DNA from: Candidatus Micrarchaeota archaeon
GTDB lineage: Archaea > Micrarchaeota > Micrarchaeia > Micrarchaeales > Micrarchaeaceae
Reading direction: 5' to 3'
Assembly (NCBI GenBank): GCA_021806095.1
Contig: JAJZYD010000001.1
Span: forward strand, 1-58,372
Length of the DNA stretch: 58,372 bases
Shown here: positions 35,935 to 43,079 of the stretch, in pieces
How positions within the stretch are numbered: position 1 is the stretch's first letter
Layout of the letters: the number at the start of each line of letters is the position of its first letter
Program-made: the position numbers and the translations under genes
Notes under the pieces: generated by a model
Databases searched by the model: none
Seen by the model: only the letters and a program-made list of their open reading frames with translations
Told to the model about the DNA's origin: nothing

Positions 35935-36678
35935 ATGAGAACTAATAATGGAAACAGATTTGAATTTGGCATATTTGGATTTGATTCAATGCTAAGTAAT
36001 GGAATGCCTTATGGAAATCAGGTGCTCATAGCCGGTAGCCCTGGATGTGGGAAGACATTGATGGCTTTTGAAATTATTTATAGGAATGCAATTAAAGGCA
36101 ATCCTGGTTTAATAATTTTATTTGAACAAAAAGTAGAGGATTTTATAGATAATGTAAAAGATGCATTTTCAGATCAAGATGATATAGACAAACTAATTGA
36201 AAACAAAGTGATAAAAATAATAAATATAGATATAATGCTTAATTTTACAAAAGCAGATGGCAATGATATGTTTTTAACTTTTAAAAACATTGTCAATAGA
36301 ATTGAAGAAGAAATTAAAAGTTTTAATCCAAAATGTGTAGTTATTGATTCAATTTCTTTGCTTAAATTTATTGCTTCAAACGAGAATATTTTGGTATACA
36401 GAAAAAGCATTTTTGTACTAATTACATTGCTACATAATTATAATATAACAGCATTCTTTACAATTGATAATTCATCAATTTCTCGAGAAGAGTTAGTATT
36501 TCAGCCGGAATTCTATATATTTGATGGAGTTATAATGCTTTATGCAGGTATTGAAAGTATAAGGCGCGAATTTACCCTTGAAATATTAAAAATTAGAGGA
36601 GCGGCACATAGCAAAACAATTGCTTCTTATATAATAACTGCAAGAGGTTTTTCAATACTTTCAAATGAGGTGGCATAA
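35935..36678 (+). CDS. KaiC/RecA-superfamily ATPase (single domain)
   Basis: Walker A GSPGCGKT and Walker B CVVIDSIS. About 247 aa, typical of archaeal KaiC-like proteins. Confidence 0.75.
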   Translation: MRTNNGNRFEFGIFGFDSMLSNGMPYGNQVLIAGSPGCGKTLMAFEIIYRNAIKGNPGLIILFEQKVEDFIDNVKDAFSDQDDIDKLIENKVIKIINIDIMLNFTKADGNDMFLTFKNIVNRIEEEIKSFNPKCVVIDSISLLKFIASNENILVYRKSIFVLITLLHNYNITAFFTIDNSSISREELVFQPEFYIFDGVIMLYAGIESIRREFTLEILKIRGAAHSKTIASYIITARGFSILSNEVA

Positions 36679-37902
36679 TTGGTAAATCAGATGCAAAATA
36701 TAACAAGTGCAAAACAAACACCGCAGGAAAAGATTAAATCATTAATAGGTGGACTAACAAATAAAGAAAAAAATATTATTTTGTTTGCTTTTCTTATGTT
36801 AGTAATTATTGCTATTTTTTATTATATAAGCACTCTTAATAGTTCAACAACAGTGGTTATTAGGAGCAGTGTAGCAGCTAAGTGTGGATATTCATCAAAT
36901 TATTCTAAATGTATTGAAACTATTGCTATACAATCAGATAATACAACTACTTGCAATAGCACTTTAGCAGGTAATACAAAAATCAACTGTATCTATAATG
37001 TAGCATTAAAAAACAACAATATCACACAATGCAATGAACTAAATTCCAGTTATAATTATTCAATTAATTGCAAATTAGCAGTTATAAACAAAACAAAAAA
37101 TTATAGTGCATGTAGTTCTATACAACAACCTTATAGTAGTTTTTGTTTATATGCAGCTTCAAAGTCCGAAAATTTCTCAAATTTAAGTGCGTGTTCAAAA
37201 ATACAAAATAAAACAGATGCAATTACATGCAATAATTTATATTATCTTAATCTTGCTATAAAAAATAAATCTGCAAATGATTGCTCTTATCTAAGTAATA
37301 CTACAAGTTTCTCTGATATATTAACTCTTATAAATTATAATTCATCATCAAATACATTGCAGCAAAATATAAACAATATTACCTCTACTTCTTACTTCAG
37401 TCAAATAAATTTCACTAATTATCAAATGTTTTTGAATTCGACTCCAAGAGATTATTGCTATTATAAGCTTGCTGAAATAGAAAATAATTCATCAACATGT
37501 AATTCTATAATATCAAATATTTATAGAAATGAATGTCTCTATAAATTAACACCACACCAGCCGCCACCATTAATTAATATAAATTATAATGCGTCAAATG
37601 CAACGCTAGCATGTAAAAATAATACAAATACCATAATTAAAAGTTGTTATATTCTGTATAATTTTCATAATGCAATTGAAAGTGAGAATGTTATTGGATG
37701 TAATATTTTTGGAAACTCAAGCGCAGGATCTATATGTGTTATGTCTATTGCTCTTAAAGAATTAAATACAAGCACATGCAATAGTGTATATAATACAACA
37801 TTACGTGGGATATGTTCTAATACTATAAATATATTAAAAATATATAGAATTCCCCAAAACATAACCAATACAACAAACTTTATTGCACCAAACATTACAT
37901 AA
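36679..37902 (+). CDS. Secreted Cys-rich, Asn-rich repeat protein
   Basis: N-terminal TM (IILFAFLMLVIIAIFYYI). At least 10 tandem ~23-25-aa units with paired Cys (C-x9-12-C-x3-hydrophobic-A). Very dense N-x-S/T. TTG start abuts the KaiC-like stop; an ATG at 36691 is the alternative start. Confidence 0.5.
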   Translation: MVNQMQNITSAKQTPQEKIKSLIGGLTNKEKNIILFAFLMLVIIAIFYYISTLNSSTTVVIRSSVAAKCGYSSNYSKCIETIAIQSDNTTTCNSTLAGNTKINCIYNVALKNNNITQCNELNSSYNYSINCKLAVINKTKNYSACSSIQQPYSSFCLYAASKSENFSNLSACSKIQNKTDAITCNNLYYLNLAIKNKSANDCSYLSNTTSFSDILTLINYNSSSNTLQQNINNITSTSYFSQINFTNYQMFLNSTPRDYCYYKLAEIENNSSTCNSIISNIYRNECLYKLTPHQPPPLININYNASNATLACKNNTNTIIKSCYILYNFHNAIESENVIGCNIFGNSSAGSICVMSIALKELNTSTCNSVYNTTLRGICSNTINILKIYRIPQNITNTTNFIAPNIT

Positions 37903-37920
37903 TCTTTTTTCGTGTTTTTT

Positions 37921-39369
37921 ATGGATGATGATATTGAAGAATATATTATTACAGGAATTAAGAATTTATATAAAGAGGGATATATTTATACAGTGATACC
38001 TACAAACATAAACAAAAATGTAGATTTAAAAATAACTAAATTTAAAAGTAATATAAAACTAAATTTATATGCAAAAATAAAATATCGAGTCCAAGAACAG
38101 AATTTTGATATTATATCTAATAAAGATTACAACAAAGTAACAAAAGTAGAGTATGAAGATATAATCCAAAAATTTATTGAAAATATTTCAACGTTTATCA
38201 ATGATGAGAAAAGTTCTGATTTAAATATAAAAAATAATATACTAAATAAATTAACAGTCAATATGCTTTCAGATTTAAAAGAAATTGCATTAATCATTAT
38301 TAAGCATGCTATTACTGGCGCCCCAATAATCATACGATTTCATAATGATTCCGATGGTTCGAGCGGCGCACTTGCACTTTATAAAGCGCTTGTTGTACTA
38401 TTTGGTCAAAAATATTCATCTATTGAAAATTTATCCATATTTTGGAGATTAAATAAAAGCATTAAATACAGTATGGAAGAATTTTATGAAGATACAGTTT
38501 TATTTGAACTTTATACTACGGTTGAAAAACCTACAGTGATTATAATAGATTTTGGTACAACACCTGAGAGTGAAGATACAATTTCACTTGCTAATAATTA
38601 TAATATTATAATTCTTGATCATCATCCGGTTTATGAGCGCTTTCCAGTTTCAAAATTAACAAAATATATAAATCCTTGGAATTATTCTGGAGATTCAAAT
38701 TATACTGCAGGTTTTCTTGTAGGTGTGCTTGCAAAAATAATTATAGGTAATAACATTAAGATTATTGATAAACTTATGAGTGCATCACTTATAGGTGATC
38801 ATAGTATATATGCTGATATAAACGATAAAGAAGCGGAAAAAATTAGCAATGTTCTTGATTATTTAACTGGAAAGGCACAATCATTTAGCATAGAAAAAAC
38901 ATTAGGTAATATAGAAGATGAGAGTAAACTGAAAATGATGTTTATTCATTCAACAAGAATATTTGAAGAGGCTCTTAATTCTTCATTAAAATATATACGA
39001 CATTATACTGGATATAATGGAACTAATATATTTGTTCTTGACTTTAATCATGTTGAAAGAATTGAAGAAGATTTTCCTTTACCTGGAAGATTTAGTACAA
39101 AACTCCATGATAATCTAGAATCTCTTAATGGTTCAAATATTACAATAGTGCATTATGGAAACTATATTTCTCTAAGAATAAGCTCTAATATTTTAGATTA
39201 TATTGATATAATGAAAACTTTTGAAAAACTTAAAAGTATTAATAAAAATATATACTCTTTTGGTGGACATAAATCAGCAGCAAGTGTAAGAATTAACAAA
39301 TTTTATATTACAAGTGTATTAAAAAATCTTTTAGAATTGCTTGGTGTTACAAATATAAAGAAATTTTAA
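37921..39369 (+). CDS. DHH/DHHA1 phosphoesterase (RecJ/GAN-like)
   Basis: Motifs RFHNDSDGSSGA (DHH I/II), IIILDHHP (DHH III) and GGHKSAAS (DHHA1). The ORF track starts at GTG 37912. Confidence 0.6.
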   Translation: MDDDIEEYIITGIKNLYKEGYIYTVIPTNINKNVDLKITKFKSNIKLNLYAKIKYRVQEQNFDIISNKDYNKVTKVEYEDIIQKFIENISTFINDEKSSDLNIKNNILNKLTVNMLSDLKEIALIIIKHAITGAPIIIRFHNDSDGSSGALALYKALVVLFGQKYSSIENLSIFWRLNKSIKYSMEEFYEDTVLFELYTTVEKPTVIIIDFGTTPESEDTISLANNYNIIILDHHPVYERFPVSKLTKYINPWNYSGDSNYTAGFLVGVLAKIIIGNNIKIIDKLMSASLIGDHSIYADINDKEAEKISNVLDYLTGKAQSFSIEKTLGNIEDESKLKMMFIHSTRIFEEALNSSLKYIRHYTGYNGTNIFVLDFNHVERIEEDFPLPGRFSTKLHDNLESLNGSNITIVHYGNYISLRISSNILDYIDIMKTFEKLKSINKNIYSFGGHKSAASVRINKFYITSVLKNLLELLGVTNIKKF

Positions 39370-39426: not shown

Positions 39427-40665
39427 TTAATAAACATTTTTTACCAGCCAATTAATTTGCTTTTCTTCAATATTAAAATTTCTTTCAAAACAAGAATAAA
39501 TTTTATCATCATCTTTATTATTTTGAAGTGCATTTCTAATCATATATGCTATCATAATTATTTCATTATTCATAATTCTAAATGTTCCTATATGTATTTT
39601 GCGTCTTAAATGTGTTGCAATTTCAAACAGCTTATTTCTAGATTCTTTTGATTTGCTTAATTCACTAATTCTCTTTGGAAATGAATATCTTTTATATTTA
39701 TTTGGATAAGAATGCTTTGAAAGTGCAATACCACTTGATATAAAAACATTTGTGTATCTCCAATATGCATAATATTGGATCTTTGATGCTCTATTAAAAA
39801 ACATACTGCCAAGTGATAGCATTTTATATGCAGCAGATATTTCATCAATATTATTATACCTATTAGTTATATTTTCATCAATCCACTGCATAAGCATCGA
39901 ATTTTCAACATCTGAATTTTGAATTGCGATAAGTGGTGCAGAATAAGTATTCGCAAAAAAAATTCTATCAAGAGTTGTAAATATATCTATTTTTCTATCT
40001 CTTACTCCAATAACCTCCGTGTATGATGATGGTGCATTATTTAGTACAAACAGATCCGATATTGCACTTCTTACATCGCCATTCGAATGATTTGAGATAT
40101 GGTCTATTATTTCTTTACTTGTTTTTATATTATATTTGTCTGCAATTTTTGTCAAAAACTGTGAAAGTTCATCTATATGCACACTGTTAAATTTTATCTG
40201 CTCTGTGCGCTCTCTTAAAAATGTTATCTTCTTATTCCATACATCATTTGCTGTAAATATTATAGGATTTTTTGAATTAACTATTAAATTAATTAATGCA
40301 GATGATGCCCCTTTATCAAATTTAGTAGAAAGTTCATCAATTTCATCAAGAAATATGAGGTTTTTTTGGCCAAACAATGTTCTACTTTGTGATGCAGCGG
40401 TCAATAGTCTTTCTATTGATTCTTTATCTCGATAATCACTTGCATTTAGTTCAACAATATGCCATTTGAATATTTTGGCAATAAGATTAACTATAGTTGT
40501 TTTGCCTACTCCTGAAGGTCCATAAATCATAAGTGGTCTGCGTCTTATATTATTATTTATATCTAATGCAAATTTTTTTATTTGTGATATTGCTTCTTTA
40601 TTACCTATAATTTCATCTATACTCTCAGGTTTGAATGATATATTATATGATTGTGATTCGTACAT
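39427..40665 (-). CDS. rfcL: Replication factor C large subunit
   Basis: AAA+ Walker A YGPSGVGKTT, Walker B LIFLDEIDEL, sensor and SRC-like region. 412 aa. Confidence 0.85.
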   Translation of the reverse strand: MYESQSYNISFKPESIDEIIGNKEAISQIKKFALDINNNIRRRPLMIYGPSGVGKTTIVNLIAKIFKWHIVELNASDYRDKESIERLLTAASQSRTLFGQKNLIFLDEIDELSTKFDKGASSALINLIVNSKNPIIFTANDVWNKKITFLRERTEQIKFNSVHIDELSQFLTKIADKYNIKTSKEIIDHISNHSNGDVRSAISDLFVLNNAPSSYTEVIGVRDRKIDIFTTLDRIFFANTYSAPLIAIQNSDVENSMLMQWIDENITNRYNNIDEISAAYKMLSLGSMFFNRASKIQYYAYWRYTNVFISSGIALSKHSYPNKYKRYSFPKRISELSKSKESRNKLFEIATHLRRKIHIGTFRIMNNEIIMIAYMIRNALQNNKDDDKIYSCFERNFNIEEKQINWLVKNVY

Positions 40666-40691: not shown

Positions 40692-41057
40692 TTAATTATG
40701 TGAAGGCGATATTTGTTTGAGCTTCAACATATTCCTATATTTATTAACCAATGCAACTGCCTGCGACACAGCTTTAATAACATCTGCTCTTGTATGTGCT
40801 CCTGTACATATCACCTTGCCATTCTTGAAAAGAAGGAGTGCCGCCTTGGGTTCGTGTATTTTTAATATTGCCCCTGGAAATTGTTCTGGTTCATAATCAA
40901 TATCTGGGGATATTTTAGCAAGATTATAAAGGTCAAGATCAACTTTCATATCTGCGCTTGCAACAATATTTTCTACATGATATGTTGGTTTTAATACAAC
41001 ATGTTTATACTTTGTCTCTATTTTTTTTGCATTTTTTCTTTCCTTTTTTCTTACCAT
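40692..41057 (-). CDS. tbp: Single-repeat TATA-box-binding-protein-like protein (half-size TBP) with a basic N-terminal tail
   Basis: VENIVASADMKVDLDLYNLAKISPDIDYEPEQFPGAILKIHEPKAALLLFKNGKVICTGAHTRADVIKAV matches one complete TBP repeat (ENIVAS...YEPEQFPG...LLFxSGKxVCTGA). The ORF is only 121 aa, flanked by noncoding DNA and rfcL. Confidence 0.8.
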   Translation of the reverse strand: MVRKKERKNAKKIETKYKHVVLKPTYHVENIVASADMKVDLDLYNLAKISPDIDYEPEQFPGAILKIHEPKAALLLFKNGKVICTGAHTRADVIKAVSQAVALVNKYRNMLKLKQISPSHN

Positions 41058-41309
41058 TTCAACACCAATTAAGCAAAATATGTATCAAAGCACAATTCTC
41101 CAATGCTTTGTGTTATTTGTTATAATTATATTTTTGAAATATTTAATATAATTTTTAATATATTTAATATAATAATATATAAATATATAATATAATGCTT
41201 GATATTCTACCTTATCTAAAAATTCTTAAATAATTGTTATAATAATAAATATCGCAATAATAAGAAATTATTAAATTATAAATAGTAAAATATAAATCTT
41301 TTAAATTTC

Positions 41310-43079
41310 TTATTTTAAAATTTTATTTATAAAAACAAATGAATCTTCTTCTTCCCCGATTTTTGTAAAATTATTTTTTGTCAATAAAGTTATTGAAGCA
41401 GTATTTTTCTTTTTTGATAATGCGTATACTTCTTTTATATTTATATCATTCATTTTTTTAATTATTTTGTTTAATAAGTCTGTTGCAATTCCTTTGCGCC
41501 TATATTCCTGTTTTATAGCAATACCCAATTCAAAGCGCTTTTTATTTTGATTCCATACAACGTTTGAAAAACCCACTACTACATTTATTGAATTATTTAT
41601 TGCTAAAAGAAAATATCCTTTTTTCATTTCCATATTTCTTATATTGTATCCAATCCATTTATCAATATCTATTATTTTATATAACTCCATTTGACTGTCT
41701 TCTTCTTTTTTAAGATCATTTATAAGTTTTTTAATGTGCTCTAAATAATCTAAATTTAAAGGTATTAATACAATTTTCTTAATCTCTTTATAATAATAAT
41801 ACTCTAGCAAATATCTTAATATTTCATTAATTACTGTACAAGAATATTTATCTATAAATCCTAATTTGCCTGTTTTTGTATATATATCATATGCACAACT
41901 TCCTCCACATAATCCAAGAGCAGGACAATTCCAGCATTCCTCATTATATAGAGGAATGCCCATTTTTATCCATTCATACATTAAAGGATTCTTGGTAGCT
42001 AAGAAACCGTTTGCTATTTTATCTTGATACAAATCTGCGGTAAAAAATGCTTGACATGGTCCAAGGGTTCCTTTTGGTGAAAATGCAATTTGCTGACCAT
42101 ACGCAGGACAGTCATAAAATTTAGGTATTTCATTAAATAAAGATTCTGCCCGTCTTCTTCCTATCCTATCCTCATATATATTTAATTCTTGAGCTCTTGT
42201 AAATCCCCTAAATAAATAATATGCAAGAATTTTAGGATCTTCAACTGCATAATCTTTATTTGTTGCATCAAGAATAATATTAAAACCAATTGCTTTAACA
42301 CCTAATTCATAAAAGAAATCAACTATTTTATCAAGAAAAAGATAATTGAATTTTGTTACTGTGCAAGATATTCCAGGTGATATTCCATTTTGTTTTAATA
42401 TAGACAGTGCTTTTATTACATCAAAAAAACTTTCATTGTTATTTTTATATACTCTATTTTTATTTAAATTTCCCCACCCATCTAAGGACAAACTGATACC
42501 AAAAGCATGTTCTTTAAAATATTTAGCTATTTCATCATTCATTAGACTTCCATTAGTTATTATACTAAATTTAAATTTGTCTTTATTGATTGCTTCAAAT
42601 TGTTCTACAAAATATTTTAAAATTTTAATGTTTAATAAAGGTTCACCCCCATAAAATATAATCTTATATTTATCAATATTTTTAGAATTATTCTTTATAA
42701 TCTTGATAATGTTGTCTGCTTGATTCTCATTCATAAAACTGCGTTTTGAAGAAAGTGCATTTTCAATATAACAATATTTACATCTAAAATTACATTCATC
42801 AGTTAATAAAATATAAGACATTGAAGGATTTGGTGCTTTAATTGTTTTAGTTTGAATTATTTTATTAATAGCTTCTTTTTTATTATAATTATCATTTACT
42901 ATAAACTTTAGTTTTTTTAGATTTTCTACGCTCTCATTATCTGCATTAGTTTGTATATCCTTAATCAATTGTTTATACTCAATATTGTTCATATATACTT
43001 TTTTTAATGAGAGAGAATGAAATAAACATATTTGATCCTTGCAACAATCAAATACATAAACAAATGGAGATATTTTCAA
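41310..43079 (-). CDS. Radical SAM / SPASM-domain peptide-modifying enzyme fused to a C-terminal GNAT N-acetyltransferase
   Basis: rSAM cluster CNFRCKYC. SPASM motifs C-x12-G-x4-C (CPAYGQQIAFSPKGTLGPC) and C-x2-C-x5-C-x3-C (CWNCPALGLCGGSC), plus a downstream Cys. GNAT motif A QEYRRKGIATDLL in the last ~150 aa. The N-terminal ~85 aa before the cluster could be an RRE. TTG start preceded by AAGTGA. Confidence 0.85.
   Translation of the reverse strand: MKISPFVYVFDCCKDQICLFHSLSLKKVYMNNIEYKQLIKDIQTNADNESVENLKKLKFIVNDNYNKKEAINKIIQTKTIKAPNPSMSYILLTDECNFRCKYCYIENALSSKRSFMNENQADNIIKIIKNNSKNIDKYKIIFYGGEPLLNIKILKYFVEQFEAINKDKFKFSIITNGSLMNDEIAKYFKEHAFGISLSLDGWGNLNKNRVYKNNNESFFDVIKALSILKQNGISPGISCTVTKFNYLFLDKIVDFFYELGVKAIGFNIILDATNKDYAVEDPKILAYYLFRGFTRAQELNIYEDRIGRRRAESLFNEIPKFYDCPAYGQQIAFSPKGTLGPCQAFFTADLYQDKIANGFLATKNPLMYEWIKMGIPLYNEECWNCPALGLCGGSCAYDIYTKTGKLGFIDKYSCTVINEILRYLLEYYYYKEIKKIVLIPLNLDYLEHIKKLINDLKKEEDSQMELYKIIDIDKWIGYNIRNMEMKKGYFLLAINNSINVVVGFSNVVWNQNKKRFELGIAIKQEYRRKGIATDLLNKIIKKMNDINIKEVYALSKKKNTASITLLTKNNFTKIGEEEDSFVFINKILK

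What the first reader, a model, noticed from the sequence alone, without database searches (positions are those of the whole stretch)
40692..41057. Stand-alone single-repeat (half-size) TATA-binding protein
Canonical archaeal and eukaryotic TBP cores are two tandem ~90-aa repeats forming a pseudo-symmetric saddle. This ORF is 121 aa and contains exactly one complete repeat. That repeat carries the hallmark blocks ENIVAS, YEPEQFPG and LLLFKNGKVICTGA, including both Phe positions used for DNA kinking. It is preceded by a 25-aa Lys/Arg-rich tail (MVRKKERKNAKKIETKYKH...). Upstream (41058-41309) is AT-rich noncoding DNA, and rfcL starts 27 nt downstream, so no second repeat is hidden by a frameshift. 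A monomeric half-TBP would have to homodimerise to form a saddle, which resembles the hypothesised pre-duplication ancestor of TBP. It could instead be a TBP-domain paralogue with another role.
Basis: partly seen in the sequence, partly recalled or inferred. Interest (0 to 1): 0.72.

Follow-up and report, generated by a model that had tools for sequence, protein, structure and literature searches.

The report
Single-repeat TATA-binding protein of Micrarchaeota
This 121-residue gene is a real, strongly conserved TATA-binding protein with one repeat instead of the universal two; it belongs to a family found across a whole group of tiny symbiotic archaea, where it occupies the normal TBP locus and probably works as a symmetric homodimer.

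Summary
ORF 40692-41057(-) encodes 121 aa with exactly one complete Pfam TBP repeat, and the window holds no second repeat. It is not an assembly truncation: the identical protein occurs on at least 24 independently assembled contigs. It is not a one-off either. Sixty-nine loci in 68 species-level Micrarchaeota genomes each encode one single-repeat TBP of about 100-121 aa, including the closed PacBio genome of cultured Ca. Micrarchaeum harzensis. The family is under strong purifying selection and is more conserved than ribosomal protein L21e. All DNA-kinking and TFB-stirrup residues are kept, and a TATA box and a GGTG ribosome-binding motif lie upstream. In most genomes it sits at the L21e/RpoF/DUF655 locus, where related Micrarchaeota encode an ordinary two-repeat TBP, so it is the positional orthologue of TBP. 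One sublineage appears to have re-duplicated the unit (2 x 98 aa). The best reading is a secondarily "halved" general TBP that acts as a homodimer. Two things are not shown: homodimerisation, and the absence of a second TBP elsewhere in these genomes. I found no paper describing this family.

The parts
40692..41057 (-). Complete CDS of the single-repeat TBP (121 aa plus stop).
   Evidence: ORF list and sequence. One PF00352 hit. Identical protein on at least 24 contigs.
40983..41057 (-). N-terminal basic tail, aa 1-25 (11 K/R), predicted disordered.
   Evidence: Sequence. AF2 pLDDT is 59-65 for residues 1-20. Tail length and sequence vary across the family.
40737..40982 (-). TBP repeat core, aa 26-107, with topology S1-H1-S2-S3-S4-S5-H2. 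It carries N30, V32, F60, L75, F77, I83 and T85 (minor-groove and kink positions) and the Y55-E-P-E-Q-F-P-G62 stirrup.
   Evidence: Pfam match. AF2 core pLDDT 92-96. Foldseek rmsd 0.8-2.0 A to one repeat of solved TBPs. Invariant columns.
40692..40736 (-). C-terminal tail (aa 108-121) and stop codon. Low-confidence, variable region.
41063..41066 (-). GGTG Shine-Dalgarno-like motif, 6-9 nt upstream of the ATG.
   Evidence: Sequence. The same GGTG(T/C)T motif precedes the start codon in L013 and in most family members.
41058..41309 (-). AT-rich intergenic region upstream that presumably holds the promoter. The exact TATA box is not resolvable in this 29% GC genome.
   Evidence: In 51 of 55 relatives with GC of 42% or more, a TATA-like hexamer is present, peaking at -45..-36 from the ATG.
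39427..40665 (-). Downstream RFC large-subunit-like AAA+ gene (412 aa), 26 nt after the TBP stop. It may be co-transcribed. This arrangement is specific to the window's genus.
   Evidence: Pfam Rad17/AAA/RCF1-5 lid; same order in L013.

Best explanation
The gene encodes the TATA-binding protein of a Micrarchaeales-type DPANN archaeon, reduced to one TBP repeat. Two copies are proposed to pair through their S1 strands and H2 helices to rebuild the ten-stranded saddle as a perfectly symmetric homodimer. That dimer would kink a TATA box with four Phe (F60 and F77 from each subunit) and offer two identical YEPEQFPG stirrups to TFB. Promoter polarity would then be set by TFB-BRE contacts, as in other archaea (established knowledge). 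Evolutionarily it is a secondary collapse of a two-repeat TBP. The likely route is unequal recombination between the unusually similar repeats seen in Micrarchaeota TBPs, followed in one sublineage by re-duplication of the whole unit. Shown here: the gene is real, has a single repeat, is conserved, keeps its functional residues, and as a family occupies the TBP locus. Inferred: homodimerisation, a role as the general and sole TBP, and the direction and mechanism of the repeat-number changes.
For: There is one full PF00352 repeat and no second repeat in the window. The gene is reproduced in at least 24 assemblies. Sixty-nine loci in 68 GTDB species genomes each have a single tblastn HSP within an ORF of about 100-121 aa. 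The same family occurs in the closed 989,838-bp PacBio genome of cultured Ca. Micrarchaeum harzensis (P0395 = QRF74309.1) and on a 1.21-Mb chromosome and a 0.93-Mb contig. Purifying selection is strong: for the core, window versus L013 gives dN 0.026 and dS 1.7, and several pairs have omega below 0.01, although gene GC ranges from 25% to 62%. The core is more conserved than L21e, DUF655 or RpoF in the same genome pairs (73% versus 58%, 63% and 41%). Positions N30, V32, Y55-I64, L75, F77-K81 and G86 are invariant against two-repeat TBPs, and ICTG is conserved at 90% or more within the half-TBP family. The AF2 model is a confident TBP repeat that matches only bona fide TBPs in the PDB. For positional orthology, 46 of 69 half-TBP loci are arranged RpoF > DUF655 > <L21e | TBP>, and the two-repeat TBPs P0003, P0007 and P0021 of related Micrarchaeota sit at the same place. 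A symmetric saddle looks workable: P0003 is 2 x 98 aa with units 87% identical, is 77-82% identical to half-TBPs, and is modelled as a canonical saddle with pLDDT 90.6. A conserved TATA box at about -40 and a GGTG motif lie upstream.
Against: I could not scan any complete genome of the clade for a second, divergent TBP. The genome scan used exact 8-mers of the query, so a canonical TBP with other words would be missed. In the window's own genus the gene is not at the L21e locus but next to rfcL, and that organism's L21e/RpoF/DUF655 locus was not recovered, so a second copy there is not excluded. Tree support for key nodes is moderate (NJ bootstrap 61-63). No expression data were found.
Confidence: 0.65

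Rival explanations
1. It is an accessory paralogue. Each genome would also have a normal two-repeat TBP elsewhere, and the half-TBP would be a regulator or a nucleic-acid-binding protein with another role, like haloarchaeal TbpA or the Thermococcales monopartite TBP-domain proteins.
For: Single TBP-domain proteins that coexist with full TBPs are documented (PMC3597702). I could not search whole genomes for a second TBP (limits). In the window's genus the gene lies away from the ancestral L21e locus.
Against: As a family it occupies the same locus as the two-repeat TBP of sister lineages. It is more conserved than L21e. It keeps every DNA-contact and TFB-contact residue. None of the 119 best-scoring two-repeat TBPs lies on a contig whose length matches any half-TBP contig or Micrarchaeales DUF655 contig, including the 0.93, 0.94, 0.99 and 1.21 Mb ones. 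The documented accessory cases are either plasmid-borne near-copies or highly divergent, unlike this family.
Confidence: 0.18
2. It is one half of a split TBP. A second, divergent half-TBP gene elsewhere in the genome would supply the partner, giving a heterodimeric saddle.
For: One MAG (CAYNNI01) carries two half-TBP loci from different subclades (L025, L055). Split genes are known in other DPANN archaea (established knowledge).
Against: Sixty-seven of 68 genomes, including a complete chromosome, gave exactly one hit although both subclades share the DIDYEPEQ search word. The L055 protein is identical to that of another MAG (L056), which suggests a mixed bin. The divergent short TBP P0180 proved to be a positional orthologue, not a second copy.
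Confidence: 0.08
3. It is a surviving pre-duplication TBP, that is, primary single-repeat ancestry rather than secondary loss.
For: The family is about equally similar to the N and C repeats of other TBPs, as an unduplicated ancestor would be.
Against: Other Micrarchaeota orders, all other archaea and eukaryotes have two-repeat TBPs. The half-TBPs are 60-63% identical to repeats of neighbouring Micrarchaeota TBPs but only about 40-43% identical to P. woesei repeats, so they nest within a two-repeat radiation. Repeat homogenisation in this phylum explains the lack of an N or C signature.
Confidence: 0.04
4. It is an artefact: an assembly collapse of two near-identical tandem repeats, or a decaying pseudogene.
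For: Tandem repeats with up to 92% identity exist in relatives, and a collapsed assembly would still give an intact ORF. One isolated case (P0199 on a 746-bp contig) could be such an artefact.
Against: The same single-repeat gene is recovered by MEGAHIT, SPAdes, Logan and long-read assemblies, and in a closed PacBio genome. Sixty-eight species would all need perfectly identical repeats. Omega far below 1 with saturated synonymous sites rules out a pseudogene.
Confidence: 0.02

Closest known systems
Canonical archaeal TBP (for example Pyrococcus woesei TBP, PDB 1PCZ/1AIS; NCBIfam PRK00394 models)
   Same: It shares the repeat fold and sequence motifs: 39-40% identity to P. woesei repeats and up to 63% to Micrarchaeota TBP repeats. 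It keeps the DNA-kinking Phe pair and the YEPEQFPG stirrup that binds TFB. As a family it has the same genomic locus (L21e/RpoF/DUF655).
   Different: It has one repeat per polypeptide instead of two. It scores 61-87 bits against NCBIfam cut-offs of 181-347, so PGAP calls most members 'hypothetical protein'. It would need to dimerise, giving an exactly symmetric saddle.
Two-repeat Micrarchaeota TBPs with near-identical repeats (P0001-P0004; P0003 = 2 x 98 aa)
   Same: Their repeats are 77-82% identical to half-TBPs of the L059/L062/L081 subclade. They have the same gene neighbourhood (MoxR, RpoF, DUF655, L21e, TBP, VTT, Pelota).
   Different: Two units are fused head to tail. They probably arose by re-duplication of a half-TBP gene, and they serve as a natural covalently linked analogue of the proposed homodimer.
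Halobacterium TbpA-type single-domain TBPs (Brindefalk et al. 2013, PMC3597702)
   Same: They are stand-alone proteins with one TBP repeat that clusters with genuine TBPs.
   Different: According to the paper, TbpA is non-essential and very similar to a full-length TBP of the same species. The haloarchaeal TBP genes found on plasmids here are below 50% identical to the window protein. The family here is chromosomal, lineage-wide, lies at the TBP locus and is under strong constraint.
Thermococcales monopartite TBP-domain proteins (82-136 aa, most 91-97; Brindefalk et al. 2013, Table 3)
   Same: They are small proteins predicted to adopt a single TBP-domain fold.
   Different: They are highly diverged from TBP, coexist with one or two normal TBPs and have unknown function. 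The protein here is an unmistakable TBP repeat (PF00352, E=2e-25).

Membership tests
TBP / TATA-box-binding protein (PF00352; general transcription factor) | Sequence matches the TBP repeat model above the curated threshold. | tested here: met
   88.9 bits against a cut-off of 22.9, covering the full-length profile.
TBP / TATA-box-binding protein (PF00352; general transcription factor) | Two tandem repeats in one chain form the pseudo-symmetric saddle. | tested here: not met
   There is one Pfam stretch and no second repeat in the window. All 69 related loci give a single HSP, whereas all 119 full-length relatives and all PDB TBPs show two.
TBP / TATA-box-binding protein (PF00352; general transcription factor) | Reaches the NCBIfam whole-protein cut-offs for TBP equivalogs. 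| tested here: not met
   61-87 bits against cut-offs of 181-347, as expected for half the length.
TBP / TATA-box-binding protein (PF00352; general transcription factor) | Minor-groove contact and kink residues are conserved (Asn and Val in S1, two Phe, Leu, and Ile/Val and Thr in S4-S5). | tested here: met
   N30, V32, F60, L75 and F77 are invariant, and I83 and T85 are at least 90% conserved. The mapping to yeast N69/V71/F99/L114/F116/V122/T124 rests on established knowledge.
TBP / TATA-box-binding protein (PF00352; general transcription factor) | The acidic stirrup that binds TFB/TFIIB is present (YEPExFPG). | tested here: met
   Y55-E-P-E-Q-F-P-G62 is invariant across half-TBPs and two-repeat relatives.
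TBP / TATA-box-binding protein (PF00352; general transcription factor) | Fold of a TBP repeat. | tested here: met
   AF2 core pLDDT is 92-96 with S1-H1-S2-S3-S4-S5-H2 topology. The top 44 Foldseek hits are all TBPs, at rmsd 0.8-2.0 A over 77-95 residues.
TBP / TATA-box-binding protein (PF00352; general transcription factor) | Orthologous genomic position relative to TBP of related organisms. | tested here: inconclusive
   This is met for the family: the L21e/RpoF/DUF655 locus is shared with two-repeat TBPs. In the window's genus, however, the gene sits next to rfcL, and the L21e locus of that organism was not recovered.
TBP / TATA-box-binding protein (PF00352; general transcription factor) | Binds and bends TATA DNA and nucleates TFB/RNAP recruitment, here as a homodimer. 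| not testable with these tools
This needs biochemistry.
Haloarchaeal TbpA-type truncated TBP paralogues | A near-copy of a full-length TBP in the same genome; a dispensable extra copy. | tested here: not met
   There is no similar full-length TBP in the window. The context is chromosomal and housekeeping. Identity to the haloarchaeal TBP genes found on plasmids is below 50%.
Thermococcales monopartite TBP-domain class | Sequence strongly diverged from TBP and coexisting with normal TBP(s). | tested here: not met
   The protein here is up to 63% identical to genuine TBP repeats. The divergence of that class is taken from PMC3597702 Table 3. Its sequences were not compared directly.

The most novel reading that the evidence does not exclude
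Micrarchaeales, including cultured Ca. Micrarchaeum harzensis, have no two-repeat TBP at all. Their only TBP would be this single-repeat protein, acting as an obligate, perfectly symmetric homodimer. TBP repeat number would have toggled 2 -> 1 -> 2 within one phylum. That would make these proteins a natural, experimentally tractable model of the postulated homodimeric ancestor of TBP and of its re-duplication.
Probability: 0.55. Interest if true: 0.88.

Novelty: new variant of a known kind. Interest (0 to 1): 0.78.

Why it matters
TBP is described as a two-repeat pseudo-symmetric saddle wherever it has been studied, in archaea and eukaryotes. Its origin from a homodimeric single-repeat ancestor is a textbook hypothesis with no natural example to test. 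If a whole archaeal order uses a single-repeat TBP as its general factor, four things follow.

- The saddle can be built from identical subunits in vivo.
- Asymmetry of TBP is dispensable for archaeal initiation, with polarity left entirely to TFB-BRE.
- Loss and re-gain of the duplication can be studied with extant proteins. A cultured host organism and a sister lineage with a re-fused 2 x 98 aa TBP are both available.
- On the practical side, current annotation thresholds label these genes 'hypothetical protein'. Comparative surveys may therefore wrongly score TBP as missing in Micrarchaeota.

Tried and rejected
- **Second TBP in the same genomes.** As a weak surrogate I compared contig lengths across and found no overlap.
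- **The window organism's L21e/RpoF/DUF655 locus.** I searched with the DUF655 protein of the nearest AT-rich relative and looked up P0342, P0384, P0379 and P0306. All belong to other organisms (GC 0.40-0.53 where measured, against 0.29 for the window; P0306's organism encodes a different, 110-aa half-TBP), so this locus remains unknown.
- **Homodimer modelling.** I used the natural 2 x 98 aa P0003 as a proxy instead.
- **Expression evidence.** Searches for the TBP gene in the supplements of the Ca. M. harzensis paper found nothing, and the stored files are truncated.
- **N-repeat or C-repeat origin.** HMM scores and identities are nearly equal for both, so this is unresolved.
- **Literature.** Eight full-text searches found no description of single-repeat TBPs in Micrarchaeota or DPANN.
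- **sigma-70 promoter scanner.** Not used, because it does not apply to archaea.
- **Rejected readings.** Frameshift or readthrough hiding a second repeat (none in any frame). Assembly truncation. Pseudogene.

Full report
**1. The observation**

The minus-strand ORF 40692-41057 encodes 121 aa. Pfam finds exactly one TBP repeat, aa 26-107. It covers profile positions 2-85 of 85, with E=2e-25 and 88.9 bits against a gathering score of 22.9. NCBIfam TBP models match only half of each model, at 61-87 bits against cut-offs of 181-347. The hallmark blocks and both kink phenylalanines (F60, F77) are present, and the first 25 residues carry 11 Lys/Arg.

Upstream lies 252 nt of AT-rich non-coding DNA. 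An RFC-large-like AAA+ gene starts 26 nt after the stop codon. tblastn with the half-TBP and with three full-length TBPs finds no other repeat in any frame of the window.

**2. The gene is real**

The identical 121-aa protein is encoded on at least 24 contigs from independent ENA (MEGAHIT), Logan and NCBI assemblies, always followed by the same rfcL gene. A 117-aa relative with 91% identity sits in a syntenic position in two JGI metagenomes.

A scan of one genome per GTDB species returned 69 loci in 68 MAGs. Almost all are labelled Micrarchaeota, Micrarchaeia or Micrarchaeaceae, and they are 56-93% identical to the query. Every locus gives a single tblastn HSP lying in an ORF of about 100-121 aa. 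These include a 1,209,602-bp chromosome (OY970071.1) and a 928,770-bp contig.

A further member, P0395 (110 aa; QRF74309.1 / WP_203134431.1, named 'TATA-box factor'), is encoded on a 989,838-bp contig. That length matches the circular PacBio+Illumina chromosome of cultured Ca. Micrarchaeum harzensis A_DKE (PMC8975820). Collapse of tandem repeats by short-read assemblers is therefore not a tenable explanation for the family.

**3. Selection and function-bearing residues**

Synonymous sites are saturated even between the window and its closest relatives, while the protein barely changes. For the core, window versus L013 gives dN 0.026 and dS about 1.7. Several closer pairs have omega at or below 0.01. 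The genes span 25-62% GC.

In the same genome pairs the half-TBP core is more conserved than its neighbours:

| Protein | Mean pairwise identity |
|---|---|
| Half-TBP core | 72-73% |
| DUF655 | 63% |
| Ribosomal protein L21e | 58% |
| RpoF | 41% |

Several positions are invariant against two-repeat relatives: N30, V32, the whole Y55-EPEQFPGAI-64 stirrup, L75, F77-KNGK-81 and G86. ICTG is conserved at 90% or more within the half-TBP family. By established structural knowledge of TBP-DNA and TBP-TF(II)B complexes, these are the minor-groove contact and kink positions and the TFB-binding stirrup.

AF2 models a confident single TBP repeat with S1-H1-S2-S3-S4-S5-H2 topology. Core pLDDT is 92-96 and both tails have low confidence. 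Foldseek matches only genuine TBPs, at rmsd 0.8-2.0 A over one repeat, with TM normalised to target of about 0.4-0.46. Every solved TBP has two repeats.

In relatives with GC of 42% or more, a TATA-like element (TATTTATA, TATTTAAA or ATATATATA) sits about 36-45 nt upstream of the ATG in most loci. A GGTG motif sits 5-10 nt upstream. The window has the GGTG motif at 41063-41066.

**4. Genomic position**

In the window and its genus the order is OTCase-(radical-SAM/GNAT)-TBP-rfcL. In 46 of the 69 loci the gene is divergently adjacent to ribosomal protein L21e, with RpoF (Rpb4-like) and DUF655 beside it. Then comes either a GCD14-like methyltransferase plus a topoisomerase-like gene, or a VTT-domain protein plus Pelota. 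In Ca. M. harzensis-type contigs this block follows rpoB/rpoA.

Two-repeat TBPs of related Micrarchaeota occupy the same slot:
- P0003: MoxR, RpoF, DUF655, <L21e, TBP196>, ..., VTT, Pelota.
- P0007, from an Anstonellaceae MAG.
- P0021.

As a family, the half-TBP is therefore the positional orthologue of the ordinary TBP, not an extra gene inserted elsewhere.

**5. Repeat-number dynamics**

The 119 best-scoring full-length relatives all have two repeats. Their inter-repeat identity is unusually high, 51-92% with a median of 69%, against 43% in P. woesei. This sample is biased towards symmetric proteins by the way hits were ranked. In three loci the two repeats share codons more often than local codon usage predicts (z = 3.1-5.8). 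That points to homogenisation or recent duplication.

In a neighbour-joining tree of 294 repeat cores:
- All half-TBPs plus both repeats of P0001-P0004 form one clade (bootstrap 61).
- A pure half-TBP clade of 54 has bootstrap 90.
- The remaining 14 half-TBPs group with the eight P0001-4 repeats (bootstrap 63), which are themselves monophyletic (bootstrap 83).

P0003 is exactly two 98-aa units that are 87% identical end to end, including what would be the N- and C-terminal tails of a half-TBP, with no indel. Its repeats are 77-82% identical to half-TBPs but at most 69% identical to any other full-length repeat. The simplest reading is one collapse to a single repeat in the ancestor of this clade and one later head-to-tail re-duplication. 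Two independent collapses plus concerted evolution is an equally parsimonious alternative. AF2 models P0003 as a canonical saddle with pLDDT 90.6, so a near-symmetric saddle made of such units is structurally plausible.

**6. Mechanism proposed**

The proposed mechanism is a homodimeric, exactly symmetric TBP that serves as the general factor. Archaeal TBPs are already fairly symmetric, and PIC polarity is set by TFB-BRE contacts (established knowledge), so two identical stirrups should be tolerated.

What is shown: architecture, conservation, locus, residues and promoter signals.

What is inferred: dimerisation, DNA bending and TFB recruitment by the dimer, and that no other TBP exists in these genomes.

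**7. Remaining uncertainty**

I could not search complete genomes for a second, divergent TBP. There are only indirect indications. None of the 119 top two-repeat TBPs lies on a contig whose length matches any half-TBP-bearing contig or Micrarchaeales DUF655-bearing contig, including the 0.93-1.21 Mb ones. Each genome gave one hit, except one probably mixed bin.

For the window's own genus the L21e/RpoF/DUF655 locus was not recovered despite four attempts, so a further copy there cannot be excluded. Homodimer prediction was not possible. No expression data were retrievable.

**8. Comparison with what is known**

Brindefalk et al. 2013 (PMC3597702) describe single TBP-domain proteins of two kinds:
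- Haloarchaeal TbpA, which according to the paper is a near-copy of a full TBP of the same species and is non-essential.
- A highly divergent Thermococcales class that coexists with normal TBPs.

The present family differs from both. It is an unmistakable TBP repeat, is chromosomal, is lineage-wide, lies at the TBP locus and is under very strong constraint. The haloarchaeal TBP genes found on plasmids are below 50% identical to it.

A 2026 paper still treats the monopartite TBP as a hypothetical prototype (PMC12917281). Eight full-text searches found no description of single-repeat TBPs in Micrarchaeota or DPANN. Paywalled literature was not searchable. Databases hold these proteins as 'hypothetical protein' (PGAP) or as TBP (JGI, Prokka) without comment on the architecture.

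**9. Verdict**

- Novelty: a new variant of a known kind.
- Interest is high, because a long-standing evolutionary hypothesis becomes directly testable with natural proteins from a cultured organism.

Noticed in passing
P0001-P0120 (one search hits); loci L082, L084, L085: Two-repeat TBPs of Micrarchaeota have unusually similar N and C repeats: 51-92% identity, median 69%, against 43% in P. woesei. The two repeats also share codons above expectation (z 3.1-5.8). This suggests concerted evolution or repeated re-duplication. The sample is biased by hit ranking.
   Followed up: partly
L082:5001-5591 (P0003): This 196-aa TBP is exactly 2 x 98 aa. The units are 87% identical at amino-acid level and 82% at nucleotide level, including the tail sequences. 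It sits at the same locus as half-TBPs, and its repeats nest within the half-TBP clade. It looks like a head-to-tail re-duplication of a half-TBP gene.
   Followed up: yes
P0125, P0397, P0403, P0421, P0428 and others: NCBI PGAP names most single-repeat TBPs 'hypothetical protein', because the NCBIfam TBP cut-offs presuppose two repeats. JGI and Prokka call them TBP or 'TATA-box factor'. Gene-content surveys may therefore score TBP as absent in Micrarchaeales.
   Followed up: partly
L098:237-566 (P0199): This is another complete 109-aa single-repeat TBP divergently adjacent to L21e, with a clear BRE/TATA-like element. It is 80% identical to C repeats of two-repeat TBPs and only 63% identical to the main half-TBP family. 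It is either an independent collapse event or an assembly collapse on a 746-bp contig.
   Followed up: partly
P0121, P0122, P0127, P0228: The representative library contains TBP-like proteins with 3 or 4 matched repeats, for example a 272-aa protein with three repeats and a 376-aa protein that looks like a doubled eukaryotic TBP (its sequence resembles eukaryotic TBPs; source unknown). Whether these are real or are assembly or gene-call artefacts was not checked.
   Followed up: no
L025 and L055 (MAG CAYNNI01); L055 versus L056: One MAG carries two half-TBP loci from different subclades. The protein of L055 is identical to that of another MAG (DAHXNT01), so a mixed or chimeric bin is likely.
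   Followed up: partly
L015, L026, L045, L053, L065 (JAMC* MAGs) and L042 (DATLRT01): Contigs with Micrarchaeota-type TBP/L21e/RpoF loci are deposited under the names 'Candidatus Marsarchaeota archaeon' and 'Candidatus Acidiferrales bacterium'. These are probably taxonomic mislabels or contaminated bins.
   Followed up: no
window 41310-43079 (-): This 589-aa ORF fuses a radical-SAM/SPASM-like region with a C-terminal GNAT acetyltransferase domain. It lies between OTCase and the TBP gene in the window but is absent from that position in the relatives L011, L012 and L014, where OTCase directly precedes TBP.
   Followed up: no
window 35935-39369 (+); L092:9053-12315: A block of KaiC/RecA-like ATPase, a hypothetical protein of about 350-400 aa and a DHH-family protein is conserved in order between the window and a distant Micrarchaeota contig, at 27-43% identity. 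Its function is unknown.
   Followed up: no
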